Shown here one piece after another: positions 1-24,145 of a stretch of 26,275 bases of DNA. The DNA is from Thermincola sp. (GTDB lineage: Bacteria; Bacillota; Thermincolia; Thermincolales; UBA2595), in the NCBI GenBank assembly GCA_032027005.1, contig JAVSMW010000006.1, positions 111,268 to 137,542 on the forward strand, read 5' to 3'. A program made the translations under genes and the position numbers. Numbering within the stretch: position 1 is the stretch's first letter; each line of letters opens with the position of its first letter. Below the pieces are notes generated by a model. The model was not told the DNA's origin, searched no databases, and saw only the letters and a list, made by a program, of their open reading frames with translations.

Positions 1-1
1 A

Positions 2-937
2 GACCTCGATAGCGGGCGGCAGACAATGGGCATCCACCGCATCCAGGTACGCGGTCCAAAACGTCTTGGAGTATACCTGGCCAGCCGGACGTCGACAGAA
101 TTTTACCGTCGGGCAGAAAAAAAGAATATGCCACTGCCCGTAGCCATTGTAGTCGGTGTCCACCCGGCGATTTTAATGGCATCAGTGGCATGGTATCCTT
201 TTGGGGACAAATTGTCCCTGGCCGGGAGCTACCTGGGGGAACCGGTCCGGCTGGTAAAAAGTTTCAGTAGTAGCCTGGAAGTTCCGTCTGAAGCAATGTT
301 TGTCATTGAGGGTGAGATTTTGCCGGGAGTTATGGAAAAGGACGGGCCTTTTGGCGAAAGTTCCGGTGTTTATGTTCCGGACATAACTAATACCATTCAG
401 GTGACCGCAATCACCATGCGGCGTGAACCGATTTTTTCCGCCTTTGTGCCATGGTCAGGCGAAGATGGGCTGGTTTTTTCTCATGCTTACGGCTCTTTTG
501 TTGTGCAAGAATTAAAGCGTTCTTTTCCGGCGGTTATTGGTCAGTGTTTTGATTTTCGATGCGGAGGATTACTGGTGGTCCAGATTGAAAGCATGGCCAG
601 AACCGAAGTGCGGCGTCTCCTTTACCATGTATTGGTCAACAACCCTTATGTGAAACAGGTTGTTGTCGTCAATGGGGATGTCGACATCTTTGATCAACAG
701 GAAGTGAACTGGGCAATTCTGACCCGTAGTCAGCCGGATATTGACTGGCTGATTCTGCCGGATATCCCAGGTTCACCGATTGATCCTTCGACGAGGCAAG
801 GGACGGGGTCCAAAGTGGGAATCGATGCTACTTATCCACCGGAAAAAGAGGAGATCTTTGCCAAAGTTGCACCGCCTGAACAGGCCCGGGCCAGGGCGAA
901 GGAAATTTTGGGCAAGGCCGGTTTTAATGTGGGCTAA
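2..937 (+). CDS. UbiD-family (prFMN-dependent) decarboxylase, C-terminal ~310 aa; the 5' end is off the left edge of the window
   Basis: The frame is open from nt 2, with no stop before the ATG at 26. UbiD hallmark blocks are present: MGIHRIQV, MPLPVAIVVGVHPA, VIEGEILPG..KDGPFGESSGVY, ITMRREPIF, VVVVNGDVDIFD..VNWAILTR, GIDATYP. It is shorter and more canonical than the other paralogues here. Confidence 0.85.
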   Translation, partial: DLDSGRQTMGIHRIQVRGPKRLGVYLASRTSTEFYRRAEKKNMPLPVAIVVGVHPAILMASVAWYPFGDKLSLAGSYLGEPVRLVKSFSSSLEVPSEAMFVIEGEILPGVMEKDGPFGESSGVYVPDITNTIQVTAITMRREPIFSAFVPWSGEDGLVFSHAYGSFVVQELKRSFPAVIGQCFDFRCGGLLVVQIESMARTEVRRLLYHVLVNNPYVKQVVVVNGDVDIFDQQEVNWAILTRSQPDIDWLILPDIPGSPIDPSTRQGTGSKVGIDATYPPEKEEIFAKVAPPEQARARAKEILGKAGFNVG

Positions 938-1115
938 AAAGCTTAGCCTGCTCCAGTTTTGATGTAATGAGTTATTGATGTTATGCTTGTACAAATTTTT
1001 TATCAGGATATTTCGTATGCAAAATAATTCTCTGAAGAAAATCTTTTCGGCGTAAATACCATTGGAAACAGGCGATAATCGCGTTTAAGTGATGAAATGG
1101 AGGAGGGCGCTAAGT

Positions 1116-2540
1116 ATGAATTATAGGCAATTCCTGGATTGTTTAGAACGGCAGGGGGAGTTAAAACAGGTAGACCGGGAAGTGGATTGGAACCTGGAGG
1201 CGGCGGCGGTTTTGGCCATGGTTTACCGGATGGAAGGACCGGCAGTACTGTTCAATAAGATCAAGGGTTATCCGCCGGGATACCGGATGGCCGGAGCTCT
1301 ATACTCGGGACCGCGCCGCCAGCCGTGGCGGAAATTGGCCATGGCGCTGGACATCGACCCCGACGGCGGTTACCGGAAATGGCTGGAGGAGTTTAATCGC
1401 CGCCTGGATCATCCGATCAAACCGGTAGTTGTTCCGGATGGACTCTGCAAGGAAGTAATTCTTACCGGCGAGGAGGCGGATATCTTTAAACTGCCTATTC
1501 CGTACCTGCATTTAGGCGACGGGGGCCGTTACGGCGGCACGCTGCCGGTAACCGTCACGCGTCACCCGGTCCGGGACTGGGTCAACGCCGGCAACTACCG
1601 CTGGATGGCCCATGACAAACACAGGCTGGGTGGAGACTTTCAGCCAGGACAGCATATGGCGGATATGTATTTTGTTTACGAAAAAAAGGGTGAAGCTATG
1701 CCGTTCTGTATGGCCATGGGTGTCAACCCGGCCCTGGATATTGCCGCAGGGGTTTCTTTACCGGTAGGAGCTAATGAATATGACGTGGCGGGGGGACTGC
1801 AGGAAGAGCCTCTCCAACTGGTGAAAGCCGAAACCAACGATCTGCTGGTCCCGGCGGATGCCGAGATCATCATCGAAGGTGAAGTGCGACCGCATGAAAG
1901 GCTCGAAGAAGGTCCCTTCGGCGAGTATGACGGCTTTATGACTACGCGGCTTCCCCAACCGGTCTACCACATTAAAGCTATAACCCACCGCCGGAATCCG
2001 ATCTTGCCGGTAGCTCCGGAAGGGTATCGCTTCAATGATACCGGTGCCATGTCGTGCGCCATCCTCTCGCCGGTCCTGCAGTGGCGGCTGGAAAAAGATG
2101 GCTTTAATGATGTATTGTTTTACAATATCCCGGAGGCTTCCTGGGCGTGGCCGGTGGTGGCCACCAAGCCTATTTCCGATACCGACCTGGGGAAATTAGT
2201 TTCTGCCGTCTGGTCGGTACCGACCATGGGGTGGCTGGATAAACTGTTGCTGGTTGATGAGGATGTGGATATTACCAGTACCGAGGAACTTCTAGAGATT
2301 TTGGGTACCCGCCTGCAAGCGGATCGGGTATATCAGAGCAAACCCAATAAACCCATCTCCTTTATTGCCGCTTGGGCTACAGAAGAAGAGCTGCGGCGGG
2401 GTCTGGCCAACGCTTTGACGTATGATTGTGTTACGCGGCCGGAGGAGGACAAACCGGAGAAAATAACCATTGAAACCCTGTTGACGCCGGCAACGCGGGA
2501 ATGGCTGGACAATTTTTGGCTCCGGGCAGTTTCCCAGTAA
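1116..2540 (+). CDS. UbiD-like carboxylase/decarboxylase, alpha-type (module A)
   Basis: The ORF runs 1089..2540. I prefer the ATG at 1116 because GGAGGAGGG sits 8 nt upstream. UbiD blocks: FLDCLERQGEL, HLGDGGRY, WVNAGNYR, MPFCMAMGVNPA, NDLLVPADAEIIIEGEV..EEGPFGEYDGF, ITHRRNPILP, LLLVDEDVDI. Confidence 0.9.
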   Translation: MNYRQFLDCLERQGELKQVDREVDWNLEAAAVLAMVYRMEGPAVLFNKIKGYPPGYRMAGALYSGPRRQPWRKLAMALDIDPDGGYRKWLEEFNRRLDHPIKPVVVPDGLCKEVILTGEEADIFKLPIPYLHLGDGGRYGGTLPVTVTRHPVRDWVNAGNYRWMAHDKHRLGGDFQPGQHMADMYFVYEKKGEAMPFCMAMGVNPALDIAAGVSLPVGANEYDVAGGLQEEPLQLVKAETNDLLVPADAEIIIEGEVRPHERLEEGPFGEYDGFMTTRLPQPVYHIKAITHRRNPILPVAPEGYRFNDTGAMSCAILSPVLQWRLEKDGFNDVLFYNIPEASWAWPVVATKPISDTDLGKLVSAVWSVPTMGWLDKLLLVDEDVDITSTEELLEILGTRLQADRVYQSKPNKPISFIAAWATEEELRRGLANALTYDCVTRPEEDKPEKITIETLLTPATREWLDNFWLRAVSQ

Positions 2541-2597
2541 ACGGCGGGAAAGGCCGCAAGATTTACAAGTAAATAAATGAGGTAAAGGAGGATAATT

Positions 2598-4145
2598 ATG
2601 CTTTTCCGGGATTTTCTCGACGAACTTAAGCGCTGCGGTGAATTAACCGAAATAGCGGAAAAGATACATTGGGACCAGGAAGTGGCTGCGGTTACTGCCA
2701 TGTCCCAGCAGAAGGGTGGGGCGGCCCTCCATTTTACTCAAGTGCAGGACGGAAACGGTTCGTCGCTGGTTGGAGCTCTGTTTTCCGGACCGGGTACTTT
2801 ATACGGCAATCCTGGCGGTAGGACCCCTTGGACGAAGATGGCCATCGCGCTCGGTTTTAATCGCGATATTTCCTACGAGGAATTATGCGAGGAGTTACTC
2901 AAACGCCGGGAGCGACCGATGCGCCCTACTGTGGTCTCTTCGGGACCGTGCAAAGAGGTGGTAAAAGTTGACGATGAGGCGAGTCTTGCCGATTTTCCCT
3001 TTCCCAGGCACTACGCCAAGGACGGAGGCCGTTACCTGACGGCGGGCGTACTGGCAGTGAAAGATTATTACGGTCGCTGGGCTAACTGGGGAGTGTATCG
3101 CGCCATGGTGCTTTCGCCACGCGAACTGGTAGTCAACATCAGCCCTGAATCCCAGGCCGGTCGGCTGCTCGCGGAATACGAACAGCACGGCAAGCCGATG
3201 CCCTGCTGCTTCTTTTTAGGAGGTAATCCCGCGGCTTTTGTCGCCGCGGCGGCACCGGTGCCTGAAGGCATCTGGGAGGCGGAAATGGCGGGTGCGTACA
3301 TCCAAAATCCGCTGGAACTGACCAGCGCGGTAACCAACGACCTGCTGATCCCGGCAGATGCCGAAATGGTAATCGAAGGAATGATTATGCCGGGCGAGCG
3401 CCATGCCGAGGGCCCGTTCCCGGAATACGTCAGGTATGCTCCACCCCGGCCCCGGCCAGTGATGCGGATAACTGCAATTACCCACCGCAAAAGTCCGGTG
3501 CTTCCATTCGTAGCCGAAGGTTGCAAGGTGAGTGATTCCATGGCGCTGCGCTCAGTGCTGGCTTCCGTTGAACTGCTGTACAAAGTGCGCACTCAGACCC
3601 AGCTTCGGGTCAGGTGGATCTACCTGCCGGTAGAGAGTCGGCTTTCAATTTGCGTGGTCGGGTGTGATCCTTTCTATCGGGGGCACAACTTCTGGGTAGC
3701 CAATGTACTTAGCCGGTACAAGGAGATGGCCTGGTTTGACAAAATCCTGATGGTGGACAGCGACATTAATCCGTCGGACATGACGGAAGTAGTAAACGAT
3801 TGGGCTCAGAAAACCAGGCCCGAAAAAGGTTATGGCTTCTGGGCGGAAGAATATTCCCACGCTGCTGGGCGCACCGCCGCTTATGCCGGGGAAGGGGAAC
3901 CGACGCGAACGGTTGTCTGGGACTGTTGCTGGGACGATAGCTGGAAAAAAGAACAGATCAGGGCCAGGGTCAGTTTTGAAAGCTCCTTCCCGACGGAACT
4001 CCAGGAGAAGGTGGTCAGTTTCTGGCCCGAGTACGGGCTGCCCGGCAAACCGTTTAAAAAACTTGTAGAGCCTTCCTGGACCCGCGGGCCGCTGCACCCG
4101 CCTGAATTCACAAAAATACCGGGAATAGGAGGTGAAGACCAGTGA
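2598..4145 (+). CDS. UbiD-like protein, divergent beta-type (module A)
   Basis: AAGGAGG lies 6 nt before the ATG at 2598. UbiD fold blocks are kept: FRDFLDELKRCGEL, AKDGGRY, WANWGVYR, NDLLIPADAEMVIEG, ITHRKSPVLPF, ILMVDSDIN. The acidic loop reads EGPFPEYVRYA (nt 3408-3440) instead of EGPFGEYxGY. The C-terminal extension RVSFESSFPTELQEKVVSFWPEYGL is shared only with 8211..9707. Confidence 0.88.
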   Translation: MLFRDFLDELKRCGELTEIAEKIHWDQEVAAVTAMSQQKGGAALHFTQVQDGNGSSLVGALFSGPGTLYGNPGGRTPWTKMAIALGFNRDISYEELCEELLKRRERPMRPTVVSSGPCKEVVKVDDEASLADFPFPRHYAKDGGRYLTAGVLAVKDYYGRWANWGVYRAMVLSPRELVVNISPESQAGRLLAEYEQHGKPMPCCFFLGGNPAAFVAAAAPVPEGIWEAEMAGAYIQNPLELTSAVTNDLLIPADAEMVIEGMIMPGERHAEGPFPEYVRYAPPRPRPVMRITAITHRKSPVLPFVAEGCKVSDSMALRSVLASVELLYKVRTQTQLRVRWIYLPVESRLSICVVGCDPFYRGHNFWVANVLSRYKEMAWFDKILMVDSDINPSDMTEVVNDWAQKTRPEKGYGFWAEEYSHAAGRTAAYAGEGEPTRTVVWDCCWDDSWKKEQIRARVSFESSFPTELQEKVVSFWPEYGLPGKPFKKLVEPSWTRGPLHPPEFTKIPGIGGEDQ

Positions 4146-5074
4146 GCGAAAAACATGCTGCCGGATTACGGGAGTTGCAGGCGGTAAATATCAGCATGAG
4201 CTGCGATCTTGCTTGCGAGCGCTGCGAACGGTTTTTTGACTGCGAGGCTCCCCAGAAGCACGATATCTACAAGCGGGGGCGGATGGAAAAAGCCCGCCGG
4301 AATATGGAAAGAGTGCGCTATAAAATAGCTATTGTTGGGGGAAAGGGCGGGGTTGGCAAATCGACCCTGACGGCTAACCTGGCCTGTGCTCTGGCTAACG
4401 ACGGTAACCGGACCAGCGTTCTGGACCAGGATTTCGACGGGCCGACCATTCCGCGCATGCTGGGGGTAACTGATAAAAAAATGATGTTTTCCGAAAAGGG
4501 CATCCAGCCCGTGGAGGGGATATTGGGGATCCAGGTGGTTTCGACAGGCTGTGTTGTCGGCACCGATGAGGTGCTGACCTGGTTTCATGACATGCGGCGG
4601 GGCGCCACTGAGGAATTCCTGGCTCACGTGGATTACGGGGAACGGGATTACCTGCTGATCGACCTGCCGCCAGGGACCAGCTCGGATTCGGTAAACCTTA
4701 TGCAGTATATTCCCGACCTGGCCGGGGCAATTATTATTACCGTTCCCTCTGATGTATCCCAGGTAGTGGCCCGCAAGGCCGCACTGCTCTGCGGGAAAGC
4801 GGGAGTACCGATTCTGGGTGTGGTTGAAAACATGAGCGGGTTTGTTTGTCCTGACTGCGGGCGAGTAGTCAATATTTTCCGTAGCGGAGGAGGAGAAAAA
4901 CTCGCCGAATCTCTGGGTGTTCCTTTCATGGGGAATATTCCCCTTGATGCCAAGCTCAGTGATGCGGCGGACAGTGGCCGACCTTATGTCTTAGATTACC
5001 CGGATAGCCCTGCGTCCAAAGCTTTGCAAGGGATAGCTGCTTACTTGAGGGAGATACTGGAAAAGAAGAATTAA
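4142..5074 (+). CDS. Mrp/Nbp35-family P-loop ATPase with N-terminal 4-Cys motif (paralogue 1 of 5)
   Basis: The GTG start overlaps the upstream stop (GTGA), and AGGAGGTG lies 7 nt upstream. It has the deviant Walker A GGKGGVGKST and DLPPGTSSD (canonical Mrp has DxPPGTGD). The N-terminal motif is C21-x3-C25-x2-C28-x5-C34 (nt 4202-4243). A C-terminal CPDCG is present. Confidence 0.9.
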   Translation: MSEKHAAGLRELQAVNISMSCDLACERCERFFDCEAPQKHDIYKRGRMEKARRNMERVRYKIAIVGGKGGVGKSTLTANLACALANDGNRTSVLDQDFDGPTIPRMLGVTDKKMMFSEKGIQPVEGILGIQVVSTGCVVGTDEVLTWFHDMRRGATEEFLAHVDYGERDYLLIDLPPGTSSDSVNLMQYIPDLAGAIIITVPSDVSQVVARKAALLCGKAGVPILGVVENMSGFVCPDCGRVVNIFRSGGGEKLAESLGVPFMGNIPLDAKLSDAADSGRPYVLDYPDSPASKALQGIAAYLREILEKKN

Positions 5075-5082
5075 TTTTTTAT

Positions 5083-5115
5083 GGCCGGTTGAGGTATCGA
5101 CCGGCCTGCTATTTT
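5083..5115 (+). terminator. Rho-independent terminator candidate ending module A
   Basis: The stem GGCCGGT (5083-5089) pairs with ACCGGCC (5100-5106) around a 10-nt loop. It is followed by TGCTATTTT. Confidence 0.6.
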
Positions 5116-5238
5116 GTGCGCTCGTTATGGTTGTTAAAAGTTAAAAAAAGAAAATAATCTTGTCTTAAGAGGTTAGAACCGTTAAAGCTTAATTTTGTCC
5201 AATTTAACCTATGATTTGTGCAGTTGCCAACTTAATAA

Positions 5239-5266
5239 TTGTCTAAATGCAAAGATGTTATATAAT
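5239..5266 (+). promoter_or_regulatory. SigA-type promoter candidate (cassette copy 1)
   Basis: TTGTCT (5239-5244), a 16-nt spacer, then TATAAT (5261-5266). Confidence 0.45.
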
Positions 5267-5381
5267 TAAAACACACTTAATCTGGAAATTAACAAAATAA
5301 TAATAGCATTAAATTAGCGTGCGAACTGGGACCTGTTGTGGCGGGGGAGTGAATGGATTCGGCGGTTTGATTGCAAAACAA

Positions 5382-5395
5382 GTTCGTATACGAAC
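5382..5395. promoter_or_regulatory. Perfect 14-bp palindrome GTTCGTATACGAAC, candidate operator
   Basis: The sequence is self-complementary. Related copies lie at 6047-6060, 6069-6082, 16174-16187 and, more weakly, 16238-16251. Confidence 0.5.
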
Positions 5396-5732
5396 AAAAC
5401 TGGTGAATATTTAATACATATAAAGTGATTTCCGGCTATAAAATAAATGAACTCCAGATATGGTCTAATATCAGGGAACGGCAAAAAATGCTCGAAATAT
5501 TACAGGAATGGGAATGCGTAGATAACTTTGAACACTGTATTCGTAGAAAATCCGGAGAAACAATTTGTGAGATACTTGCGGTGTGGCTTATGACAATGAC
5601 AAGTATCACAGTTTCAGAGTGTTTTAGGAAGAAAAAAAGGGGGTAGATGAAAATGAAAATAAATACTATTAACCGTTAAATCTCAATTTTGTTCAATTTA
5701 ACCTAAGATTTGTGCAGTTGCCAACAAAATAA

Positions 5733-5760
5733 TTGCCTAGAAATAACGATGTTATATAAT
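5733..5760 (+). promoter_or_regulatory. SigA-type promoter candidate (cassette copy 2), likely driving 5845..6069 and module B
   Basis: TTGCCT (5733-5738), a 16-nt spacer, then TATAAT (5755-5760). Confidence 0.5.
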
Positions 5761-5844
5761 TAAACCATACATAAATCTGGAAACTGAAAAAAATAATAGT
5801 ATTTAACTAGCGTGCGAACAATTTGTGAACAGGAGGTGAAATTG

Positions 5845-6069
5845 ATGTTTAAAAAACAAAATACTACAATACCTAAAATGGGAGAAAAACTAGCAAAAAT
5901 TACCGAAGCAATTGCCGAAAAGGAAAACTCAAGAATCGAAGAAAAAACTTACCGTAGAAATTGTTATGAGGTTTTTCCATTTCTGACTGGAACCTGTTGT
6001 GGCGGGGGAGGGGATGGATTCGGCGGTTTGTTTGATTACAAAACTAGTTCGTATACAAACAAAAACTAG
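5845..6069 (+). CDS. Small hypothetical protein (74 aa) with a Cys/Gly-rich C-terminal segment (GTCCGGGGDGFGGLFDY)
   Basis: AGGAGGTG (5831-5838) lies 6 nt before the ATG at 5845, downstream of the promoter candidate. I recognise no domain. The 3' third lies in repeat part B and runs into the operator-like repeats. Confidence 0.4.
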   Translation: MFKKQNTTIPKMGEKLAKITEAIAEKENSRIEEKTYRRNCYEVFPFLTGTCCGGGGDGFGGLFDYKTSSYTNKN

Positions 6070-6082
6070 TTCGTATACAAAC
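6047..6082. promoter_or_regulatory. Two tandem operator-like sites GTTCGTATACAAAC with starts 22 bp apart
   Basis: The direct repeat AAAACTAGTTCGTATACAAACA occurs twice (sites 6047-6060 and 6069-6082). Each site is a 13/14 match to the 5382 palindrome. Confidence 0.5.
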
Positions 6083-6277
6083 AAAAAAAGTTCTCGCACA
6101 ATCAAAAATTATTCGCATCCGAAGCTAGGATAAGTTTTCGGGACCAGGGTGGCGAAAATGTGTGGGAAATTTAAATAAAAATAATATTTGCCAATTTAAG
6201 AAGGGGGTGAAGCTTATGTTGTGAAGAACTTCAGTGGAGCCCGAATAAAACACATTAATAGGAGGTGCACAACTTTA

Positions 6278-7822
6278 ATGGCAGTAAAAAGAATTGATGA
6301 TCTGAGAGATTACCTTGATGTTCTGGATCAAATGGGTGAAATATGTCATGTTAAGGATGAAGTTGACTGGAAACTGGAAATGACGGGAATTGGAGCTATG
6401 TCCAACCGTATCGACGACAAAATCCCACTCTTTGAAAACATTAAAGGCTACCCCAAAGGTACCAGGGCGTCAACTGACCTCTACCGTGGCAGCCACGGAG
6501 CTTTGTGGCGGCGGATGGCCTTGTCCATCGGCTTATCCCCGGAAATTTCCTATTCAGATTACATGGATGAATACATTAACCGTTTCAATCACCCGATCCG
6601 CCCCATTGCCGTGGATAAGGGTTCATGCCAGGACGTTGTACTGATCGGGAAAGATGTCGATGTTTTAAAAACACTTCCGGTTCCGTATATCCACGACGGT
6701 GACGGCGGTCGTTACCTGACCATGCACGCGATGATTGTCAAGGATCCTGATTCGGAATGGGTCAACTGGGCCAATTACCGTGCACTAGTTAATACCAAGA
6801 ATAAGATCAGCTTTCTCTTCTGCCCTGGCCAGCAAAACCCCAACCTTTACTATTATAAGTATGAAGCTAGGAACCAGCCCATGCCGGTTGCCATAGCCAT
6901 TGGCGGGCACCCTGCGGTTTGGTATATGGCCACAACTCCATTGCCAGCAGGGGTCAGTGAGGTCGATTATATCGGCGGCATGATCCAAAAACCGGTTGAG
7001 TTGGTCAAGTGCGTGACGAATGATCTTTATGTGCCAGCAAATGCGGAGTATGTGATTGAGGGCGTTATGATGCCCCACGAACGCATTGATGAAGGTCCGT
7101 TCGGTGAGTATCTTGGTTACATGCACGGCCCGCGCCGTCCGATGCCTTTTGTTCGGGCTACGGCCATTACCCACCGGAAAAACCCGATCCTGCCGATCTG
7201 CGTTGAGGGAACCGGGGTAGGGGAGTCGAATAACGTCTGCAATACCAGTTTCAACGCTCTGTTAACCCCAGCGCTAATGGTTTTCCTGCGGCAGCTAGGT
7301 TATCCGGTCAAGTTTGTAACTGGTCCCGAACTTAACGCGTGGTCATCCCTGATTGCGGCTACCAAAATTCCTTATCCCGGGTATGCCAAAGAATTAGGCG
7401 AACTGCTACTGACCTGTCCCGGACCTTCCATGTACTATGACCTTACTTTCCTAGTGGATGAAGATATTGACATTACCGATATGGAAAAAGTTTGGGAAGA
7501 AATTGTTTTAAAAGCCCATCCAACAAAGGATTGGAATAACTTCGGCGACGCTGAAGCGCCAAGGTCGTCGCTGAATATCTACCAGACAGCCGAAGAAAAA
7601 GGAGCCCTAGCTAAGGCGTCCTCCAAGGGAAAAACGTCAAAATGCTGGATTGACGCCACAACCAAGGAATGGAACGAAACTACGGACGGACCGAAACGCA
7701 TGGAGTTCGATCTTTTATATCCGACCACTAAGGATTGGGTGACCAGCAACAAAGAAAAATACGACCTGCCAAAATATAAGGATTTCCGTGAGGAAGGTTT
7801 ACGCTGGATTGAACAAAAATAA
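6278..7822 (+). CDS. UbiD-like carboxylase/decarboxylase, alpha-type (module B)
   Basis: The ORF runs 6221..7822. I prefer the ATG at 6278 because AGGAGGTG sits 9 nt upstream. UbiD blocks: LRDYLDVLDQMGEI, HDGDGGRY, WVNWANYR, MPVAIAIGGHPA, NDLYVPANAEYVIEGVM..DEGPFGEYLGYM, ITHRKNPILP, FLVDEDIDI. Confidence 0.9.
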   Translation: MAVKRIDDLRDYLDVLDQMGEICHVKDEVDWKLEMTGIGAMSNRIDDKIPLFENIKGYPKGTRASTDLYRGSHGALWRRMALSIGLSPEISYSDYMDEYINRFNHPIRPIAVDKGSCQDVVLIGKDVDVLKTLPVPYIHDGDGGRYLTMHAMIVKDPDSEWVNWANYRALVNTKNKISFLFCPGQQNPNLYYYKYEARNQPMPVAIAIGGHPAVWYMATTPLPAGVSEVDYIGGMIQKPVELVKCVTNDLYVPANAEYVIEGVMMPHERIDEGPFGEYLGYMHGPRRPMPFVRATAITHRKNPILPICVEGTGVGESNNVCNTSFNALLTPALMVFLRQLGYPVKFVTGPELNAWSSLIAATKIPYPGYAKELGELLLTCPGPSMYYDLTFLVDEDIDITDMEKVWEEIVLKAHPTKDWNNFGDAEAPRSSLNIYQTAEEKGALAKASSKGKTSKCWIDATTKEWNETTDGPKRMEFDLLYPTTKDWVTSNKEKYDLPKYKDFREEGLRWIEQK

Positions 7823-7888
7823 GGTCGGGTTATAATATCCAGACCTTAAAAACCAAAACATCAAAATATAGGAGGTGCATAGTTAGAT

Positions 7889-8185
7889 ATGGCCAAGTAT
7901 GAGATGTGGGTTAAAGAGCTAAAAAGATTCAGGAATGAAATTCAGGATGGGACACCGGTAAAAGTGGATGTTCGAGACGAGAGCCTGAACTGGCATGCAG
8001 TGATAGCCATTATTTCGGAAACCCCGATCAAGGATGGAGTAGAAACAGTGATAGTTGGGGAAGGTGGACCGGTTTCCTATGTCAACAAGCCGGTATACCT
8101 TAAAATTGTCGAAGAACTGGACGAAGACGACCAATATGTTATCAAAGATATGGACAGATACAACAAAAGACTGGGTGATGTCTAA
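7889..8185 (+). CDS. Small hypothetical protein (98 aa) between the alpha and beta UbiD genes; candidate small subunit
   Basis: AGGAGGTG lies upstream and the gene is tightly packed (66 nt and 25 nt gaps). It has an acidic C-terminal segment, YLKIVEELDEDDQYV. I recognise no domain. Confidence 0.6.
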   Translation: MAKYEMWVKELKRFRNEIQDGTPVKVDVRDESLNWHAVIAIISETPIKDGVETVIVGEGGPVSYVNKPVYLKIVEELDEDDQYVIKDMDRYNKRLGDV

Positions 8186-8210
8186 TAATAAGCAGGAGGT
8201 GTAGTCATAA

Positions 8211-15151: not shown

Positions 15152-16158
15152 TGGCAATAATTAAAAAGAAAACTAATAATATTAAGAAAATTACTTCATT
15201 CAATGTTAATCTTTCATGTGTTATTGATGAAGAAAGTGGCCGTATCGCCTGCGAGAAGTGCGAAAAGTTTTTTGACTGCAAGGAACAAAGCAAGTGGGAC
15301 GTTTATAAACATGGGCGGCTAGCGCTGGCCCAGCGGAAAATGTCGTCAATTAAACATAAAATTGCCATTGTTGGCGGCAAGGGTGGCGTGGGCAAGACCA
15401 TGCTGGCCGTCAACATTGCCGCCGGACTGGCCAAGCGCGGGAAACGGGTGGCGGTCCTTGATTCCGATTATGACGGGTCCAGCGTCCCGAGGATGCTGGG
15501 GGTGGCTGATAAAAAGCTTTATATGGGTGCACAGGGTATTGAACCGGTGGAAGCTTTGCTGGGTATCAAGGTGGTTTCCATGGGGAACCTGAGGAATGAT
15601 AACGATATTGTTACGTGGTATTCCGATAGCCGACGGGGAGCCACAGAAGAGTTTATTACTCATGTCAACTATGGTGAGCTTGATTACTTGATTGTTGATT
15701 TGCCGCCGGGCACCAGCGCCGACACGGTGAACAGCATGCTGTTTATCCCGGATATGACCGGTATTGTCTTCATTACTGTTCCTTCCGAGGTTTCTCAGGG
15801 GGTAGCCTTACGGGCTGCTACGATCTGCGGCAAGGGCGGCGTCAAAGGAATCGGGATTGTTGAGAATATGAGCGGTCATGTCTGCCGGCACTGCGATCAT
15901 CGTTCCGAGATATATTCTACAGGGGGCGGAGAAAAACTCGCCGAAGCTACGGGAATACCACTGATCGGCAAGTTGCCGGTTGAAGGTTATGCCGGTATGG
16001 CCTGTGATGAAGGTGTACCGTTTGTGGTCGCCTACCCGGAAAGCGCATCCGCCAAAATTATGGAAAAAGTTGTTGATAAAATAGAAGAAGAAGTTCTTAC
16101 CAGTAGACGCGATTTGAGCCACCTTAACACGGATTACGGAAAACGCTCCTGGTGGTAA
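15151..16158 (+). CDS. Mrp/Nbp35-family P-loop ATPase with N-terminal 4-Cys motif (paralogue 5)
   Basis: An ATGA overlap with the upstream stop suggests translational coupling. It has GGKGGVGKTM, DLPPGTSAD, C23-x10-C34-x2-C37-x5-C43 and CRHCD. Confidence 0.88.
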   Translation: MAIIKKKTNNIKKITSFNVNLSCVIDEESGRIACEKCEKFFDCKEQSKWDVYKHGRLALAQRKMSSIKHKIAIVGGKGGVGKTMLAVNIAAGLAKRGKRVAVLDSDYDGSSVPRMLGVADKKLYMGAQGIEPVEALLGIKVVSMGNLRNDNDIVTWYSDSRRGATEEFITHVNYGELDYLIVDLPPGTSADTVNSMLFIPDMTGIVFITVPSEVSQGVALRAATICGKGGVKGIGIVENMSGHVCRHCDHRSEIYSTGGGEKLAEATGIPLIGKLPVEGYAGMACDEGVPFVVAYPESASAKIMEKVVDKIEEEVLTSRRDLSHLNTDYGKRSWW

Positions 16159-16173
16159 AAAAATGCGTAGAAA

Positions 16174-16187
16174 GTTCGTATAAGAAC
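16174..16187. promoter_or_regulatory. Operator-like site GTTCGTATAAGAAC (13/14 match to the 5382 palindrome)
   Basis: It lies in the 248-bp gap upstream of the small-protein/UbiD/ligase/UbiX module. A weaker copy, TTTTGTATATGAAC, lies at 16238-16251. Confidence 0.45.
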
Positions 16188-16406: not shown

Positions 16407-16787
16407 ATGTACGAAAAACCGTCAAACCGTTTGGAAATCCATAAAAATTTTACTTTTGGACCTGATCCTGATGAATTGAAAAAGCAGGAAGGCCGGGAGG
16501 TTTACGATGTAATCATCCTGTCGGACTCCATTGATGAGCTTACCAGTCAACAGAATCAGGAAATTACGCTAGCCATCAGGTTGCTTACTCCTAAAGACAG
16601 AAAGATGAGGTACTGCACTAGGACGGTCAGTGCGATGATCAGCAGCGATCCGACCAAATACCGTGATCGTTTGCATGTGCGGTTCCAGCGGGGGTTATTG
16701 CATCCGAAACCCTGGAGTATTGAAATTGTTAAAGAACTTGAGGGCTTGATGAGCTTGGAAGCCGATCACACCATAGCACGTTCTTAA
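16407..16787 (+). CDS. Small hypothetical protein (126 aa) immediately upstream of a UbiD gene (the abcD position by synteny)
   Basis: AAGGAGGAGAGG lies upstream and the next gene follows after 22 nt. I recognise no domain by eye. The assignment rests only on gene order. Confidence 0.6.
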   Translation: MYEKPSNRLEIHKNFTFGPDPDELKKQEGREVYDVIILSDSIDELTSQQNQEITLAIRLLTPKDRKMRYCTRTVSAMISSDPTKYRDRLHVRFQRGLLHPKPWSIEIVKELEGLMSLEADHTIARS

Positions 16788-16809
16788 ATATTGATAGAAA
16801 GGAAAGGTG

Positions 16810-18345
16810 ATGTCCAAGATGTATCGTGATTTAAGAGGATATATTGACGCATTGGAAAAAAACAACCAGTTAGTCAGAACCAATAAAGAAGTGGACTGGG
16901 ATCTTGAAGCCGGCGCCATAGCCCGGCTTGGTTACCAGTTAGACTCAAAAGCCATGTTGATGGAAAATATTAAAGATTATCCTGGTTTCCGGTATCTGGG
17001 TGGTGTATTTAGCAACTGGCAGCGGGCAGCGATCGCCATCGGGCTAAATCCTAACGCCTCCCGGCGCGAAATCCAGGATACATATCGCGAAAGGCTGGAC
17101 CATCCGATTAAGCCAATTATTATTGAGGATGCTCCCTGTCAGGAAAATGTCATTACCGATGAAGACGTCAACCTGTTCGACCTGCCGGCCCCCATGGTTC
17201 ACGACGGTGATGGCGGCAGATACCCAACTACCTGGTCTTTTGTAGCCACTCCTTCATATAACACCGACTGGATCAACTGGGGGATGTACCGCCAGATGAT
17301 TCATAACGAAAGGACATTGGGCGGCCTGGTGCTGCCTTCCCAGGATATTGGTATCCAGTATTACGGTGGCTGGGAACCAGCAGGTGAAAAGATGCCCTTT
17401 GCCGCTGTGATTGGCGGTGAGGTATTGACCACTGCTGTGGCTGCCGTTCCCTACGGAGTTGGACGGAGCGAGGTTGATTTCGCCGGGGGCTTGCTCCTGG
17501 AGCCGGTGGAGTTGGTCAAGTGCGTTTCAGTTGACCTTCTGGTCCCGGCCAATGCCGAAATCATTATTGAAGGATATGTCAGCCCGAAAGAACGCTGCTA
17601 TGAAGGGCCTTTCGGAGAGTATACCGGTTACCGGACTTCGCCGCGGATGCCGCGGGTGGCCTACCACGTGACCGCCATTACTTACCGCGATAACGCTATT
17701 ATGCCCTTTTCTAATATGGGCGTGCCGACAGATGAATGCGATATGATCGCCAATACGCTCTGGCGGGCCGACCTGATGCGGGTTCTGGAAGAAAACGGTA
17801 TACCGGTACTTGATGTATCGATGCCGACGGAAATGGTTATGCACTCAGCATTCATTTCCATCAAGAAACCTTACAGCAGTATTCCCAATAAGGTAGCTAA
17901 GCTGATCTTCGGTGAAAAGAATACTGGTCTTTTCCTTCACCAGATTTATGTTTGCGATGAGGATGTTGATGTTCAGGATCTATCTCAGGTTATGCATGTT
18001 TTTGCCACAAAATGGCATCCGAAACGGGGAACGCATTTCTTCGACAAGACGGTCGGCGTGCCGCTGCACCCATTCCTTGACATGGAAGAGAGAACCTGGA
18101 GCAAGGCATCTAAGGTTTGCTTTGACTGCACCTGGCCCAGCGAATGGTCGCCTACGGCGGAAGTCCCGGTCCGCTCCAGCTTCTGGGATATTTACCCAGA
18201 ACGGGTTATAGAAAAGGTCTGCAGCACCTGGAAGGAGTTTGGCCAAGATCAGGATATGCTGTCGGCACTGGCAGATTACAACCGCATCGGTCGTTGGCCT
18301 GGTAGTGAGACTTTTAATAAACCGGTAGTGACCAAGAAAAAGTAG
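16810..18345 (+). CDS. UbiD-like carboxylase, alpha-type (AbcA-like by synteny)
   Basis: The ORF starts at 16807. ATG 16810 or ATG 16819 could be the start, and AAAGGAAAGG lies upstream. UbiD blocks: LRGYIDALEKNNQL, HDGDGGRY, WINWGMYR, MPFAAVIGGE, LLVPANAEIIIEGYV..YEGPFGEYTGYR, ITYRDNAIMPF, IYVCDEDVDV. Confidence 0.9.
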   Translation: MSKMYRDLRGYIDALEKNNQLVRTNKEVDWDLEAGAIARLGYQLDSKAMLMENIKDYPGFRYLGGVFSNWQRAAIAIGLNPNASRREIQDTYRERLDHPIKPIIIEDAPCQENVITDEDVNLFDLPAPMVHDGDGGRYPTTWSFVATPSYNTDWINWGMYRQMIHNERTLGGLVLPSQDIGIQYYGGWEPAGEKMPFAAVIGGEVLTTAVAAVPYGVGRSEVDFAGGLLLEPVELVKCVSVDLLVPANAEIIIEGYVSPKERCYEGPFGEYTGYRTSPRMPRVAYHVTAITYRDNAIMPFSNMGVPTDECDMIANTLWRADLMRVLEENGIPVLDVSMPTEMVMHSAFISIKKPYSSIPNKVAKLIFGEKNTGLFLHQIYVCDEDVDVQDLSQVMHVFATKWHPKRGTHFFDKTVGVPLHPFLDMEERTWSKASKVCFDCTWPSEWSPTAEVPVRSSFWDIYPERVIEKVCSTWKEFGQDQDMLSALADYNRIGRWPGSETFNKPVVTKKK

Positions 18346-18469
18346 AATGAAGGGTTAAAAAAAGTATTCATGGTTTCTGGTTGTTAAACATGAGCAGGTA
18401 CAGAAGATGATTTTTAAAATGGAAAACGTAACTTTTGTGCCTGCTCAGACTAATTTTAAAGGTGGTGGA

Positions 18470-20032: not shown

Positions 20033-20087
20033 CTTCTCAAATATTGTTCTATGTAAATACTTGGACAGGAAAATGGAGGGATGAAGA

Positions 20088-20681
20088 ATGAAAAAGCTTG
20101 TTGTGGGGATATCCGGCGCAACAGGTGCCATTTACGGAATCAGACTATTGGAAGTACTACGCGAACTTGAGGTAGAGACGCATCTGGTTGTATCTGAAGG
20201 AGCGGCGCGGACTATCCGGATGGAAACGCAGTATGAATTTTCCGAAGTGACCAAGTTAGCTACACATGTTTATGACATTAAAAATGTCGGAGCTTCCATA
20301 GCAAGCGGATCTTTTCCAATCGATGGTATGGCTATCGTTCCCTGTTCCATTAAAAGTCTTTCGGCTTTGGCTAACTCTTACAATGATAATTTGTTAATTA
20401 GGGCGGCCGATGTTAACCTTAAAGAAAAAAGGAAAGTAGTGGTTATGGTTCGGGAGACGCCGTTGCATGTCGGCCACCTGCGCCTGATGATGCAGGTGGC
20501 CGAAGCCGGCGGGGTTATTCTTCCTCCAATGCCTGCTTTTTACCACCAGCCCCGGAGCCTCCAGGAAATAATTGATCAAACAATAGGGAAAGTTCTGGAT
20601 CAATTTGGTTTAGATGGTAAACTTTTTTCTCGATGGGAAGGCAGCGGAATATTAAGGTCTGTCAGCAAAAAAAGCATTTAG
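20088..20681 (+). CDS. ubiX: Flavin prenyltransferase UbiX (prFMN synthase)
   Basis: MKKLVVGISGATGAIYGIRLLEVL, MAIVPCSIKSLSALANSY.DNLLIRAADV.LKE.RK, PPMPAFYH. These form a classic UbiX/Pad1 pattern, and the protein is 197 aa. Confidence 0.93.
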   Translation: MKKLVVGISGATGAIYGIRLLEVLRELEVETHLVVSEGAARTIRMETQYEFSEVTKLATHVYDIKNVGASIASGSFPIDGMAIVPCSIKSLSALANSYNDNLLIRAADVNLKEKRKVVVMVRETPLHVGHLRLMMQVAEAGGVILPPMPAFYHQPRSLQEIIDQTIGKVLDQFGLDGKLFSRWEGSGILRSVSKKSI

Positions 20682-23853: not shown

Positions 23854-24145
23854 ATAATATTATTTCACATTTTTTTGTAAACTAGGATTTTATTTTTCTG
23901 GCATAAGCATTATAATATAGATAAAAGTTTGTATGAAAAATATTGGTAACAAAAGTTTTCCAAACTTTCGAAAAAACAGTATCATTTCCTTAGCCGCAGA
24001 CTATACGAAACTGACCCGTAACCGATTGTGAGGTGCAGATCCAGTCGTGTTAGTAAGAAATTTGGCAGAAACTGTCTTCGGGTGTAATTCCCGGATCTTT
24101 TGTCAAAGTTTGGTATTTCTGAACACTTATTTGGGGGAGTATTTT

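What the first reader, a model, noticed from the sequence alone, without database searches (positions are those of the whole stretch)
4142..16158. Five paralogous Mrp-type ATPases carry a eukaryote-Nbp35-like N-terminal Cys motif plus the C-terminal CxxC: possible ATP-driven Fe-S partners of UbiD enzymes
Seen in sequence: all five proteins (4142, 9801, 10774, 14102, 15151) have the deviant Walker A GKGGVGK(S/T). All have a C-terminal CxxC (CPDCG, CHKCG, CPDCG, CEHCG, CRHCD).

All also have an N-terminal C-x3-C-x2-C-x5-C motif; paralogue 5 has C-x10-C-x2-C-x5-C. None has the DUF59/MIP18-type N-domain I expect in bacterial Mrp/ApbC. They also share DLPPGTSSD in place of the usual PPGTGD, and a private block (W/M)FHDMRRG.TEEF.

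Established knowledge: eukaryotic Nbp35 binds a stable [4Fe-4S] at an N-terminal Cys motif (C-x13-C-x2-C-x5-C as I recall). The CxxC pair bridges a labile cluster across the dimer. NifH/BchL-type reductases belong to the same SIMIBI ATPase class and use a subunit-bridging cluster for ATP-coupled low-potential electron transfer.

Inference: five copies embedded among catalytic genes argue against a housekeeping Fe-S carrier role. They could be dedicated maturases for a metallo/prFMN site. More interestingly, they could be ATP-dependent activators or reductases that keep prFMN in the right redox state or drive an otherwise unfavourable carboxylation.
Basis: partly seen in the sequence, partly recalled or inferred. 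Interest (0 to 1): 0.85.

Follow-up and report, generated by a model that had tools for sequence, protein, structure and literature searches.

The report
UbiD-carboxylase-linked Nbp35-type Mrp ATPases
Five related ATPase genes with six invariant cysteines lie inside the putative benzene-carboxylase gene cluster of a Thermincola bacterium. They belong to a distinct branch of the Mrp/NBP35 family that is almost always encoded next to UbiD-type carboxylases, an association already reported for naphthalene and phenanthrene carboxylases, and their function is still unknown.

Summary
Five + strand paralogues (44-60% identical) are Mrp/NBP35 P-loop ATPases (Pfam PF10609, E 1e-68 to 1e-77). Each has GKGGVGK[ST], an N-terminal C-x3(or x10)-C-x2-C-x5-C and a C-terminal CxxC. 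All six Cys are invariant in 213 relatives.

The window matches a Thermincola MAG and carries the abcD-abcA-bzlA-ubiX arrangement of the putative benzene carboxylase.

The subfamily is not housekeeping. All 13 independent informative places, the window included, encode UbiD genes nearby, mostly within 45 bp. None of 127 generic Mrp/MinD control loci does. The link extends to a clade in apparently aerobic Proteobacteria.

The N-terminal motif is not eukaryote-specific or private. About 10% of generic prokaryotic Mrp proteins carry it without any UbiD neighbour.

The association itself is published: 'ParA/MinD ATPase-like, MRP' subunits of the N47 naphthalene carboxylase complex, and apaD/E/H in the phenanthrene cluster. 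Their function is still listed as unknown in 2026.

The module contains no obvious Fe-S client. My best reading (about 0.4) is a dedicated ATP-dependent, Fe-S-bearing maturation or reactivation factor for the prFMN carboxylase. Tandem gene pairs and natural two-module fusions suggest it acts as a homo- or heterodimer. Direct energy coupling of carboxylation remains a serious rival. The mechanism is untested.

The parts
4142..5074 (+). M1, Nbp35-type Mrp ATPase (310 aa), clade A. N-terminal Cys motif at 4202-4243, Walker A at 4340-4363, switch II DLPPGTSSD at 4661-4687, CxxC at 4847-4861.
   Evidence: PF10609 at E 2.2e-77. 100% identical to a Thermincola sp. MAG protein, MDT3703201.1. The GTG start overlaps the stop of the upstream UbiD gene (GTGA). 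A terminator-like hairpin at 5083-5106 follows. Motif coordinates.
9801..10730 (+). M2, Nbp35-type Mrp ATPase (309 aa), clade A. It is the first gene of the tandem pair M2-M3.
   Evidence: PF10609 at E 1.1e-72. Clusters with M1 in the PPGTSSD clade. Motifs.
10774..11697 (+). M3, Nbp35-type Mrp ATPase (307 aa), clade B (DIPAGTSSE). It is the second gene of the tandem pair.
   Evidence: PF10609 at E 2.6e-68. Forms a separate clade with the second-copy genes of other loci (L004-L006).
14102..15151 (+). M4, Nbp35-type Mrp ATPase (349 aa) with a C-terminal extension of about 40 aa. It is the first gene of the pair M4-M5, directly upstream of abcDA.
   Evidence: PF10609 at E 4.2e-70. Its stop overlaps the M5 start (TGATG). 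It forms a singleton clade.
15151..16158 (+). M5, Nbp35-type Mrp ATPase (335 aa) with the C-x10-C-x2-C-x5-C variant and DLPPGTSAD.
   Evidence: PF10609 at E 3.4e-70. It has its own clade of 316-343 aa proteins with x9/x10 spacing.
26..4145 (+). Module 1 partners: three UbiD-like genes (26-937, listed ORF 303 aa whose UbiD match starts at model position 57; 1089-2540; 2598-4145).
   Evidence: Pfam UbiD_N, UbiD and UbiD_C. NCBIfam UbiD family.
6221..9707 (+). Module 2 partners: UbiD-like 6221-7822, a gamma-like small protein 7889-8185, and UbiD-like 8211-9707.
   Evidence: Pfam. The small protein is related to small proteins in other Mrp-UbiD loci.
13670..14065 (+). Gamma-like small subunit (131 aa) just upstream of M4.
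   Evidence: BLASTP hits to small ORFs next to UbiD genes in L003, L004, L006, L143, L145 and L147, with E as low as 2e-14.
16407..20681 (+). The abcD-like (16407-16787), abcA-like UbiD (16807-18345), bzlA-like AMP ligase (18407-20032) and ubiX (20088-20681) core of the putative benzene carboxylase cluster.
   Evidence: Pfam Phenyl_P_gamma, UbiD, AMP-binding and Flavoprotein. phenyl_P_alpha at 431 bits. The synteny matches the published abcD-abcA-bzlA-ubiX description (PMC13101534).

Best explanation
The five genes encode a distinct, UbiD-dedicated branch of the Mrp/NBP35 (Nbp35-type) P-loop ATPases. They are accessory subunits of the UbiD-type arene carboxylase modules of this benzene-degrading Thermincola, one set per module: M1 alone, M2+M3, and M4+M5.

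Proposed mechanism, with the basis of each step:
1. ATP binding closes a homo- or heterodimer through the signature lysine. The motif is shown invariant here. The behaviour is inferred from the family.
2. The dimer holds a bridging [4Fe-4S] on the two CxxC pairs and one stable [4Fe-4S] on each N-terminal four-Cys motif. This is inferred from Nbp35 and ApbC. Only the invariance of the six Cys is shown here.
3. The dimer docks on the UbiD/gamma-like core. The evidence here is operon structure and translational coupling. The published N47 work counts the ATPase-like proteins as part of the complex.
4. ATP hydrolysis is used to mature or reactivate the prFMN enzyme. That means loading the cofactor and, under anoxic conditions, taking up the two electrons of the prFMNH2-to-iminium oxidation through the clusters. 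The role would be analogous to chaperone/reactivase NTPases such as MeaB, HypB or CooC, and it would not be general Fe-S supply. Step 4 is inference only.
For: Family membership:
- PF10609 scores 230-260 bits.
- An AF2 model has pLDDT 89.9, and its closest solved structures are Cfd1, AF2382 and ApbC, followed by the Mrp-type HypB.

ATPase and cluster ligands under strict selection:
- G67, K68, G69, G70, G72, K73, D95 and D174, together with C21, C25, C28, C34, C236 and C239, are invariant in 64-213 diverse relatives.

Dedication to UbiD:
- All 13 independent informative places (11 proteins looked up, 2 genome loci, the window) have a UbiD gene nearby; 14 of the 16 loci scored do. In the 14 loci scored, 12 have the nearest UbiD within 45 bp; the two added afterwards have it 32 bp (L153) and about 1.7 kb (L151) away.
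- No UbiD is found at 0 of 127 generic Mrp/MinD loci, or at 0 of 58 with at least 3 kb on each side.
- The UbiD stop overlaps the M1 start and the M4 stop overlaps the M5 start.

No Fe-S client in the conserved module:
- UbiD-like and gamma-like proteins lack Cys motifs.

Heterodimer idea:
- Tandem A/B gene pairs occur here and in L003-L006 and L153.
- Natural two-module fusions exist (P0235, P0236).

Literature:
- Naphthalene carboxylation is oxygen-sensitive and ATP-stimulated (PMC12016498).
- UbiD enzymes can need chaperones, and O2-independent oxidative maturation of prFMN is an open problem (PMC10865409).
Against: - No biochemical data exist for any member. Fe-S binding is inferred from motif spacing only. 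A Zn or Fe(II) site at the N-terminus is not excluded, and one database fragment of the family was even auto-annotated as a Zn-ribbon protein.
- No Mrp/NBP35 member is known to transfer electrons or to handle flavins.
- In N47 extracts the carboxyl-exchange half-reaction runs without ATP. So the cofactor is already active there, and the ATP effect may act on a forward catalytic step or merely reflect pull by the CoA ligase.
- A clade of the family occurs in apparently aerobic Proteobacteria, where O2 could mature prFMN.
- My context sample is small (12 independent places plus the window). The proteins were chosen for contig length and diversity before their contexts were seen, but they are not a random sample.
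Confidence: 0.4

Rival explanations
1. Catalytic-cycle energy coupling. The ATPase dimers are true catalytic subunits. Their ATP hydrolysis drives a conformational step of the UbiD core, for example domain closure for cycloaddition to an unactivated arene, or product release. This would make the slightly endergonic carboxylation of benzene or naphthalene run forward. The clusters would be structural or regulatory.
For: - Naphthalene carboxylation in N47 extracts is reported to be 5-fold to strongly ATP-dependent, while the later exchange steps are ATP-independent. The reaction is about +14 kJ/mol (PMC12016498).
- The ATPase-like proteins are counted as complex subunits (PMC10570749).
- ATPase motifs are invariant, and translational coupling with UbiD suggests fixed stoichiometry.
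- Domain motion is known to matter in UbiD catalysis on aromatics (title and abstract of PMC8379154, listed).
Against: - The review itself says the ATP effect may come from the CoA ligase.
- An earlier study found the reaction ATP-independent.
- This model gives no reason why all six Cys, including the N-terminal four, are invariant.
- No SIMIBI ATPase is known to drive a carboxylation.
Confidence: 0.25
2. Metal insertase. The proteins are HypB/CooC-like metallochaperones. The N-terminal Cys site and the dimer-interface CxxC bind a metal ion (for example Fe2+) rather than Fe-S clusters, and they deliver it ATP-dependently to the prFMN/metal site of the UbiD subunits.
For: - The Mrp-type HypB of Thermococcus is among the closest folds (TM about 0.70).
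- The architecture of an N-terminal Cys site, an interface Cys site and a SIMIBI NTPase recalls Ni chaperones (own knowledge).
- UbiD enzymes need a divalent metal for prFMN binding, and chaperone-assisted activation has a precedent in LpdD (PMC10865409).
Against: - The usual UbiD metal is Mn2+, which is not a thiolate-preferring ion.
- The C-x2-C-x5-C spacing and its register relative to the first beta strand match the Nbp35 cluster motif. That comparison used a NUBP1 sequence recalled from memory and is a lead only.
- Sequence similarity is much higher to Fe-S carrier Mrp proteins than to HypB (E 1e-47 to 1e-49 versus 1e-22).
Confidence: 0.12
3. Pathway-dedicated Fe-S carrier. The proteins are ordinary Mrp-type cluster carriers recruited to supply [4Fe-4S] clusters to Fe-S enzymes of the downstream aromatic pathway (benzoyl-CoA reductase-type enzymes, ferredoxins), and they merely share an operon with the carboxylase.
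For: - This is the established function of characterised family members (PMC6345978).
- Some related loci have HGD-D/BcrAD, ferredoxin or POR genes close by (L001-L004, L150, L151).
Against: - The invariant neighbour is UbiD, not an Fe-S enzyme.
- The window and the minimal Proteobacterial module (small protein, UbiD, UbiD, Mrp, two small proteins, with UbiX and PNPOx following in L143/L144) contain no Fe-S protein.
- Five paralogues with clade-specific surface residues are hard to justify for generic delivery.
Confidence: 0.1
4. Housekeeping or positioning ATPases. The proteins would be MinD/ParA-like or general ApbC proteins that happen to be multi-copy here.
For: Database names such as 'ATP-binding protein involved in chromosome partitioning'.
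Against: - Scores fall below the cut-offs of the ApbC, MinD and ParA equivalog models.
- The CxxC and N-terminal Cys motifs are present.
- Conserved UbiD adjacency contrasts with 0 of 127 controls.
Confidence: 0.02

Closest known systems
[quoted passage not shown]
   Same: - The same gene neighbourhood: several UbiD-like genes, PpcC-gamma-like small genes, HAD genes and one or two tandem Mrp-like genes.
- Desulfatiglandales proteins fall in the same clade at about 58% identity to M1 (P0042's 90% cluster).
- Function is unknown in both.
   Different: - This window has five copies in three modules instead of two.
- I could not compare directly with the N47 sequences because they were not available to the tools.
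- The Cys motifs and the Nbp35 relationship were not found discussed in the open-access texts searched. No paper holds both 'UbiD' and 'Nbp35'.
Eukaryotic Nbp35 (NUBP1) of the cytosolic Fe-S assembly scaffold Nbp35-Cfd1
   Same: - Deviant Walker A, a PPGTS-type switch II and ENMSGxxCxxC.
- An N-terminal four-Cys motif ending in C-x2-C-x5-C about 23-24 residues before the first beta strand.
- Likely hetero-pairing of two paralogues.
   Different: - The first spacing is x3 (x9/x10 in the M5 clade) instead of x13.
- WRGP is replaced by WFHD..RR..TEEF.
- The genomic context is a prFMN carboxylase, not Fe-S protein biogenesis.
- BLAST does not align the N-terminal motif itself.
Bacterial ApbC/Mrp and MrpORP Fe-S carriers
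   Same: - The same Pfam family and fold, and the same CxxC bridging-cluster motif.
- MrpORP is the best NCBIfam hit at 225-251 bits.
   Different: - Scores are below both equivalog cut-offs (348 and 450).
- There is no DUF59 N-domain and no C-terminal Di-Nase domain.
- A PPGTS(S/A)D-type switch II (PAGTSSE in M3) replaces PPGTGD.
- Thirteen subfamily-specific positions lie within the ATPase core.
Mrp-type HypB (Thermococcus kodakarensis) and CooC-type Ni chaperones
   Same: - A SIMIBI ATPase dimer that serves one specific metalloenzyme.
- Close fold (TMq about 0.70).
   Different: - Much weaker sequence similarity (E 1e-22).
- Different metal-site motifs.
- The client here is a flavin (prFMN) enzyme.
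NifH/BchL/CfbC ATP-dependent reductases
   Same: - The SIMIBI class, a subunit-bridging cluster in an ATP-dependent dimer, and partnership with a catalytic core.
   Different: - Only the P-loop region (about 35-43 residues) matches (PF00142 at 21-33 bits against a cut-off of 25).
- The cluster ligands sit at different positions.
- Membership is not met, so this is an analogy only.
LpdD prFMNH2-binding chaperone of UbiD-type gallate decarboxylase
   Same: An accessory protein encoded with UbiD/UbiX that assists activation of the holo-enzyme (PMC10865409).
   Different: An unrelated small Pba3/4-like fold, with no NTPase and no Cys motifs.

Membership tests
Mrp/NBP35 (ApbC) P-loop ATPase family, Pfam PF10609 | Profile match above the gathering score | tested here: met
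   230-260 bits against a cut-off of 27.1 for all five proteins.
Mrp/NBP35 (ApbC) P-loop ATPase family, Pfam PF10609 | Deviant Walker A GKGGhGK[ST] with the signature lysine | tested here: met
   GKGGVGKS/T is present in all five. Both lysines are invariant in the 64-sequence alignment.
Mrp/NBP35 (ApbC) P-loop ATPase family, Pfam PF10609 | Conserved CxxC about 160-170 residues after Walker A | tested here: met
   C236 and C239 are invariant in 213 of 213 sequences.
Mrp/NBP35 (ApbC) P-loop ATPase family, Pfam PF10609 | Fold of solved members | tested here: met
   The AF2 model (pLDDT 89.9) is closest to Cfd1 6g2g, AF2382 2ph1 and ApbC 8zkc, with TMq 0.71-0.74.
Mrp/NBP35 (ApbC) P-loop ATPase family, Pfam PF10609 | Binds and transfers [4Fe-4S]; has ATPase activity | not testable with these tools
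   This needs anaerobic biochemistry.
Nbp35 subtype (N-terminal stable [4Fe-4S]) | N-terminal C-x13-C-x2-C-x5-C motif | tested here: inconclusive
   The spacing is C-x3 (x10 in M5) followed by C-x2-C-x5-C. The last three Cys have the same spacing and register as in NUBP1, but the first spacing differs. The NUBP1 sequence was recalled from memory.
Nbp35 subtype (N-terminal stable [4Fe-4S]) | Works as a hetero-complex with a paralogue (Cfd1) | tested here: inconclusive
   Tandem A/B gene pairs, translational coupling and natural two-module fusions are suggestive. No interaction data exist.
Bacterial ApbC (NCBIfam NF008669) and MrpORP (NF041136) equivalogs | Score above the curated cut-off, plus the full domain architecture (DUF59 N-domain, or C-terminal Di-Nase domain) | tested here: not met
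   157-193 bits against a cut-off of 348, and 225-251 bits against 450. The MrpORP matches stop at model position about 250-258 of 365. No DUF59 domain is present.
NifH/BchL-type ATP-dependent reductases (PF00142) | Full-length profile match with the NifH cluster ligands | tested here: not met
   Only profile positions 2-43 (the P-loop) match, at 21-33 bits. NifH chains match only query positions 62-104.
ATPase-like subunits of UbiD-type arene carboxylases (naphthalene carboxylase type) | Encoded adjacent to UbiD-like and PpcC-gamma-like genes | tested here: met
   This holds in the window and in all 12 informative independent related places, against 0 of 127 controls.
ATPase-like subunits of UbiD-type arene carboxylases (naphthalene carboxylase type) | Sequence orthology to N47_K27520/K27510 | not tested
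Only Desulfatiglandales MAG members of the same clade were seen.
ATPase-like subunits of UbiD-type arene carboxylases (naphthalene carboxylase type) | Physical membership of the carboxylase complex | not testable with these tools
   Reported for N47 only at second hand (PMC10570749). The primary paper is not held.

The most novel reading that the evidence does not exclude
The UbiD-linked clade is a new functional class within Mrp/NBP35. It would be an ATP-driven Fe-S 'activase' that exchanges electrons with prFMN, a NifH-like job evolved independently in the Nbp35 branch. This would provide the O2-independent oxidative maturation or reactivation of prFMN. It would also explain the ATP dependence and oxygen sensitivity of anaerobic benzene and naphthalene carboxylation, and why these enzymes have resisted heterologous reconstitution.
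Probability: 0.2. Interest if true: 0.88.

Novelty: new member of a known kind. Interest (0 to 1): 0.55.

Why it matters
How anaerobes carboxylate benzene and PAHs is unresolved. The role of ATP in naphthalene carboxylation is disputed, and how prFMN is oxidised to its active form without O2 is unknown.

This analysis shows that a sharply defined Nbp35-type ATPase clade travels with heteromeric UbiD carboxylases. The clade has invariant ATPase residues and six invariant Cys, and it extends beyond anaerobic hydrocarbon degraders.

That points to a concrete missing component for reconstitution experiments: AbcDA plus M4/M5 plus UbiX. It also gives specific residues to mutate, and it corrects a published reading of these genes as 'multidrug resistance protein' homologues.

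Tried and rejected
1. The genome-contig scan with the five-paralogue alignment was dominated by the generic GGKGGVGK pattern. It returned only two true subfamily loci. The other 56 were reused as controls.

2. The metagenome-contig scan with a sub-alignment lacking Walker A was dominated by the generic ENM pattern. It returned 80 generic Mrp loci, also reused as controls. A systematic census of the subfamily was therefore not possible. Context evidence rests on 12 look-ups (11 informative-or-short proteins listed in the report) plus 2 genome loci.

3. The primary papers on N47 (Koelschbach 2019, Heker 2023) are not held. Their content is cited only through a review and through secondary papers.

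4. I looked for an Fe-S client inside the module. UbiD-like proteins show only one well-conserved single Cys column, and the small proteins have none. The carrier-for-module idea was downgraded.

5. Apparent loss of CxxC in clade B was an artefact of my regular expression (ENL instead of ENM). All members keep the motif.

6. Rfam found no riboswitch or other RNA family in the window.

7. Dimer or complex structure prediction and Cys-Cys distances could not be obtained. The tool models single chains and returns no coordinates.

Full report
**1. Observation**

The window has five + strand ORFs at 4142-5074 (M1), 9801-10730 (M2), 10774-11697 (M3), 14102-15151 (M4) and 15151-16158 (M5). Over columns aligned across the wider family they are 39-60% identical to one another.
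- All five match Pfam PF10609, the NUBPL/Mrp-type P-loop NTPase, at E 1e-68 to 1e-77. No other domain is found.
- The alignment and motif scan confirm GKGGVGK[ST] and the C-terminal CPDCG/CHKCG/CPDCG/CEHCG/CRHCD.
- They also confirm the N-terminal C-x3-C-x2-C-x5-C, which is C-x10-C-x2-C-x5-C in M5.
M3 has DIPAGTSSE and M5 has DLPPGTSAD. The FHDMRRG.TEEF block is exact only in M1 and M2.

**2. Where the window comes from**

M1 is 100% identical to a protein of a Thermincola sp. MAG, MDT3703201.1. The surrounding genes are as follows.
- Six UbiD-like genes.
- PpcC-gamma-like small genes.
- An abcD-like / abcA-like / AMP-ligase / ubiX run at 16407-20681.
- A CTP-dependent riboflavin kinase, HAD hydrolases, MarR regulators and an IS4-type transposase.

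The abcD-abcA-bzlA-ubiX order is the published arrangement of the putative anaerobic benzene carboxylase cluster of Thermincolales (PMC13101534; PMC5852087).

**3. A defined subfamily**

Two searches of the 5.8-billion-protein collection gave 212 relatives.
- Of the 120 best relatives of M1 (55-100% identical), 119 carry the exact C-x3-C-x2-C-x5-C. All carry a D-x-P-[PA]-G-T-x-x-D switch II (DLPPGTSSD or DMPPGTSSD in 117) and the ENMxxxCxxC motif.
- In an alignment of 213 full-length members, all six Cys (C21, C25, C28, C34, C236, C239 in M1 numbering) are present in 213 of 213.
- Both Walker A lysines, D95 and the Walker B Asp D174 are invariant.

Against 106 generic PPGTGD-type Mrp representatives, the clade is distinguished by D99, T146, R152/R153, T156, E157/E158, Y165, S180, D182, N185, Q207 and A220.

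Clustering gives the following clades.
- Clade A (M1, M2; PPGTSSD).
- A clade B group (M3; PAGTS[SA][DE]).
- The M5 clade (x9/x10 spacing, about 335 aa).
- M4 as a singleton.
- A 'clade 3' with mostly PAGTG[TV]E.

In the 50%-identity representative library the subfamily collapses to a handful of clusters. Scores then fall from 466 to about 340 bits and merge into generic Mrp proteins.

**4. Is it linked to UbiD?**

I looked up genomic places for 13 relatives, choosing them for contig length and diversity before seeing their contexts.
- Ten of eleven subfamily relatives had UbiD genes nearby: P0010, P0024, P0101, P0174, P0210, P0145, P0162, P0138, P0235 and P0241. In most cases the UbiD gene is directly adjacent.
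- The eleventh, P0185, lies on a 1.4-kb contig and is uninformative.
- A borderline protein, P0242 (339 bits), lies on a 3.3-kb contig and showed none. It was not counted.
- P0024, P0174 and P0210 were each read at two places, which gives the duplicate loci L002/L003, L143/L144 and L145/L146.

The two subfamily loci recovered from reference genomes (L005, L006) also have 3-4 UbiD genes.

A uniform HMM re-scan gave these counts.
- Of 14 subfamily loci, 13 have a UbiD gene, and 12 of them have it within 45 bp.
- Of 127 loci carrying generic Mrp/MinD/FlhG-type genes, none has one. The count is 0 of 58 when at least 3 kb is available on both sides.

The linkage holds even for clade 3. Loci labelled Steroidobacteraceae, a TARA ocean scaffold and a Chloroflexota MAG share a compact module. 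It reads small protein, UbiD, UbiD, Mrp and two small proteins, sometimes followed by UbiX and a PNPOx-like gene. The subfamily is therefore dedicated to UbiD enzymes and is not confined to anaerobic hydrocarbon degraders.

**5. What is not special**

The N-terminal motif is not private to this clade or to eukaryotes.
- Seven generic Mrp genes in the control loci carry C-x3-C-x2-C-x5-C with no UbiD nearby. One is in a Ruminococcus genome.
- Fifteen of 139 scorable representatives across the family, including the top subfamily ones, have a looser C-x(2-20)-C-x2-C-x5-C motif.
- PPGTS is the Nbp35/Cfd1-type switch II.

The last Cys of the motif lies 23-24 residues before the first beta strand in both proteins. 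This is a lead, not a test.

The published phylogeny of the family already places several Mrp proteins of anaerobes nearer to Nbp35 than to ApbC (PMC6345978).

**6. Structure**

- An AF2 model of M1 built from a 64-sequence alignment has mean pLDDT 89.9 and pTM 0.88. Residues 21-40 score 85-90.
- Foldseek against the PDB ranks Cfd1 (6g2g), AF2382 (2ph1), ApbC (8zkc) and AF_226 (3kb1) first. The Mrp-type HypB follows, then FleN, MinD and FlhG, with NifH much further down.
- No solved chain covers residues 1-40.
- NCBIfam equivalogs for ApbC, MrpORP, MinD, ParA and NifH are all missed by wide margins.

**7. What is already known**

The neighbourhood is published.
- The N47 and NaphS2 naphthalene carboxylase clusters contain 'MRP, Fer4_NifH superfamily' and 'ParA/MinD ATPase like' genes next to UbiD-like and gamma-like genes. 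Desulfatiglans TRIP_1 has homologues that are expressed (PMC6849830).
[quoted passage not shown] - For the benzene cluster, an 'MRP homologue' was reported as co-transcribed with abcAD but read as a multidrug resistance protein (PMC5852087). The present analysis shows it is the Mrp/NBP35 ATPase.
- No held paper contains both 'UbiD' and 'Nbp35'. The Cys-motif and Nbp35 angle appears not to have been discussed in the open-access literature searched.

**8. Mechanism**

*Shown here*
- Family membership.
- Strict conservation of ATPase residues and of six Cys.
- Operon-level and translational coupling to UbiD. The UbiD stop overlaps the M1 start (GTGA), and the M4 stop overlaps the M5 start (TGATG).
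- Tandem A/B pairs here and in L003-L006 and L153.
- Natural fusions of two complete modules (P0235 at 638 aa, P0236 at 624 aa).
- Absence of any Cys-motif protein that could be an Fe-S client in the conserved module.

*Taken from the literature*
- Naphthalene carboxylation is highly oxygen-sensitive.
- ATP dependence is disputed: absent in one study, 5-fold to strong in later ones. The carboxyl-exchange half-reaction is ATP-independent, and the ATP effect may be due to the CoA ligase (PMC12016498).
- Some UbiD enzymes need chaperones, and O2-independent oxidative maturation of prFMN is unexplained (PMC10865409).

*Inferred*
- ATP-dependent homo- or heterodimers carry one bridging cluster and two N-terminal [4Fe-4S] clusters.
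- They dock on the UbiD/gamma core.
- They act as a cofactor-directed maturation or reactivation factor.

I put this at about 0.4. Within it, electron transfer between the clusters and prFMN is about 0.2 overall. The rivals are catalytic-cycle energy coupling (0.25), a metal insertase (0.12), an Fe-S carrier for downstream enzymes (0.10), and housekeeping or positioning (0.02).

The ATP-independent exchange reaction argues somewhat against a pure reactivase. The invariance of all six Cys argues against a purely mechanical ATPase.

**9. Why five copies**

The window looks like three carboxylase modules.
- Module 1 spans positions 1-5074 (GC 0.50-0.58) and holds three UbiD genes and M1. It ends in a terminator-like hairpin.
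- A 1.1-kb AT-rich gap follows, and then module 2: two UbiD genes, a gamma-like gene, M2 and M3.
- Module 3 holds M4, M5, abcD, abcA, bzlA and ubiX.

Other loci have one or two copies per module. The count therefore reflects stacking of modules, each with its own ATPase set.

**10. Verdict**

- The 'eukaryote-like' label is misleading.
- The gene association is already in the literature.
- The mechanism is open.
- Novelty: a new member of a known kind. The window's five genes belong to the published ATPase-like component of arene carboxylase clusters.
- Interest is moderate to high, because the result names a specific, testable missing component for an unsolved enzyme.

Noticed in passing
window 5382-5395, 6047-6060, 6069-6082, 16174-16187: The 14-bp perfect palindrome GTTCGTATACGAAC occurs four times (once exact, three times with one mismatch). 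The chance expectation is 0.03. The sites lie upstream of the UbiD gene at 6221 and between the M5 stop and the abcD start. They are probably the operator of a cluster regulator, for example one of the MarR-type genes at 20785-21816 or 24047-24643.
   Followed up: partly
window 1-6220: GC content is 0.50-0.58 over positions 1-5000, 0.34 over 5001-6000 and 0.42-0.52 afterwards. A terminator-like hairpin sits at 5083-5106 right after M1. Module 1 (three UbiD genes plus M1) looks like a separately acquired unit.
   Followed up: partly
window 12421-13607 and 20088-20681: An archaeal-type CTP-dependent riboflavin kinase (PF01982) and a HAD hydrolase sit in the middle of the carboxylase cluster, with UbiX downstream. 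This may be a dedicated FMN/prFMN supply line.
   Followed up: no
window 4142-4145, 14102-14122 and 15149-15171: The stop of UbiD gene 2598-4145 overlaps the M1 GTG start (GTGA). The M4 stop overlaps the M5 ATG (TGATG). M4 and M5 both begin with MAIIKKK. The overlaps suggest translational coupling.
   Followed up: partly
window 14102-15151 (M4, C-terminal ~40 aa) and 7889-8185: M4 shows a weak similarity to the gamma-like small protein s98 (29% over 41 aa, E 8e-4); the aligned stretch of M4 was not located. M4 might carry a fused linker-like tail.
   Followed up: no
P0235 (638 aa), P0236 (624 aa); locus L151 8001-9917: Natural tandem fusions of two complete Nbp35-type modules exist, each module with its own N-terminal Cys motif, Walker A and CxxC. 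The P0235 locus has a molybdopterin oxidoreductase directly upstream and a UbiD gene 1.7 kb away on the other strand.
   Followed up: partly
L143, L144, L145, L146, L148 (clade 3 loci): A compact module of a 99-aa protein, UbiD, UbiD, Mrp, a ~118-aa protein and a 140-aa protein, followed by UbiX and a PNPOx-like gene in L143/L144. It occurs in apparently aerobic Proteobacteria (Steroidobacteraceae label, TARA ocean scaffold). The substrate is unknown.
   Followed up: partly
window 8211-9707: This UbiD-like protein has ISWSDER where its paralogues have N-x-[GA]-x-Y-R (read). From memory, the Asn of that motif is a metal/prFMN-phosphate ligand in Fdc1. This subunit may therefore be non-catalytic.
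   Followed up: no
window 20785-21816: This 343-aa protein combines an N-terminal HAD-like domain with a C-terminal MarR winged helix. That is an unusual regulator architecture next to the cluster.
   Followed up: no
window 22172-23626: An IS4-type DDE transposase (PF13701, PF01609) lies just downstream of the cluster.
   Followed up: no
literature, PMC5852087: The 'MRP homologue' co-transcribed with abcAD was interpreted there as a multidrug resistance protein. It corresponds to the Mrp/NBP35 ATPase genes analysed here.
   Followed up: yes
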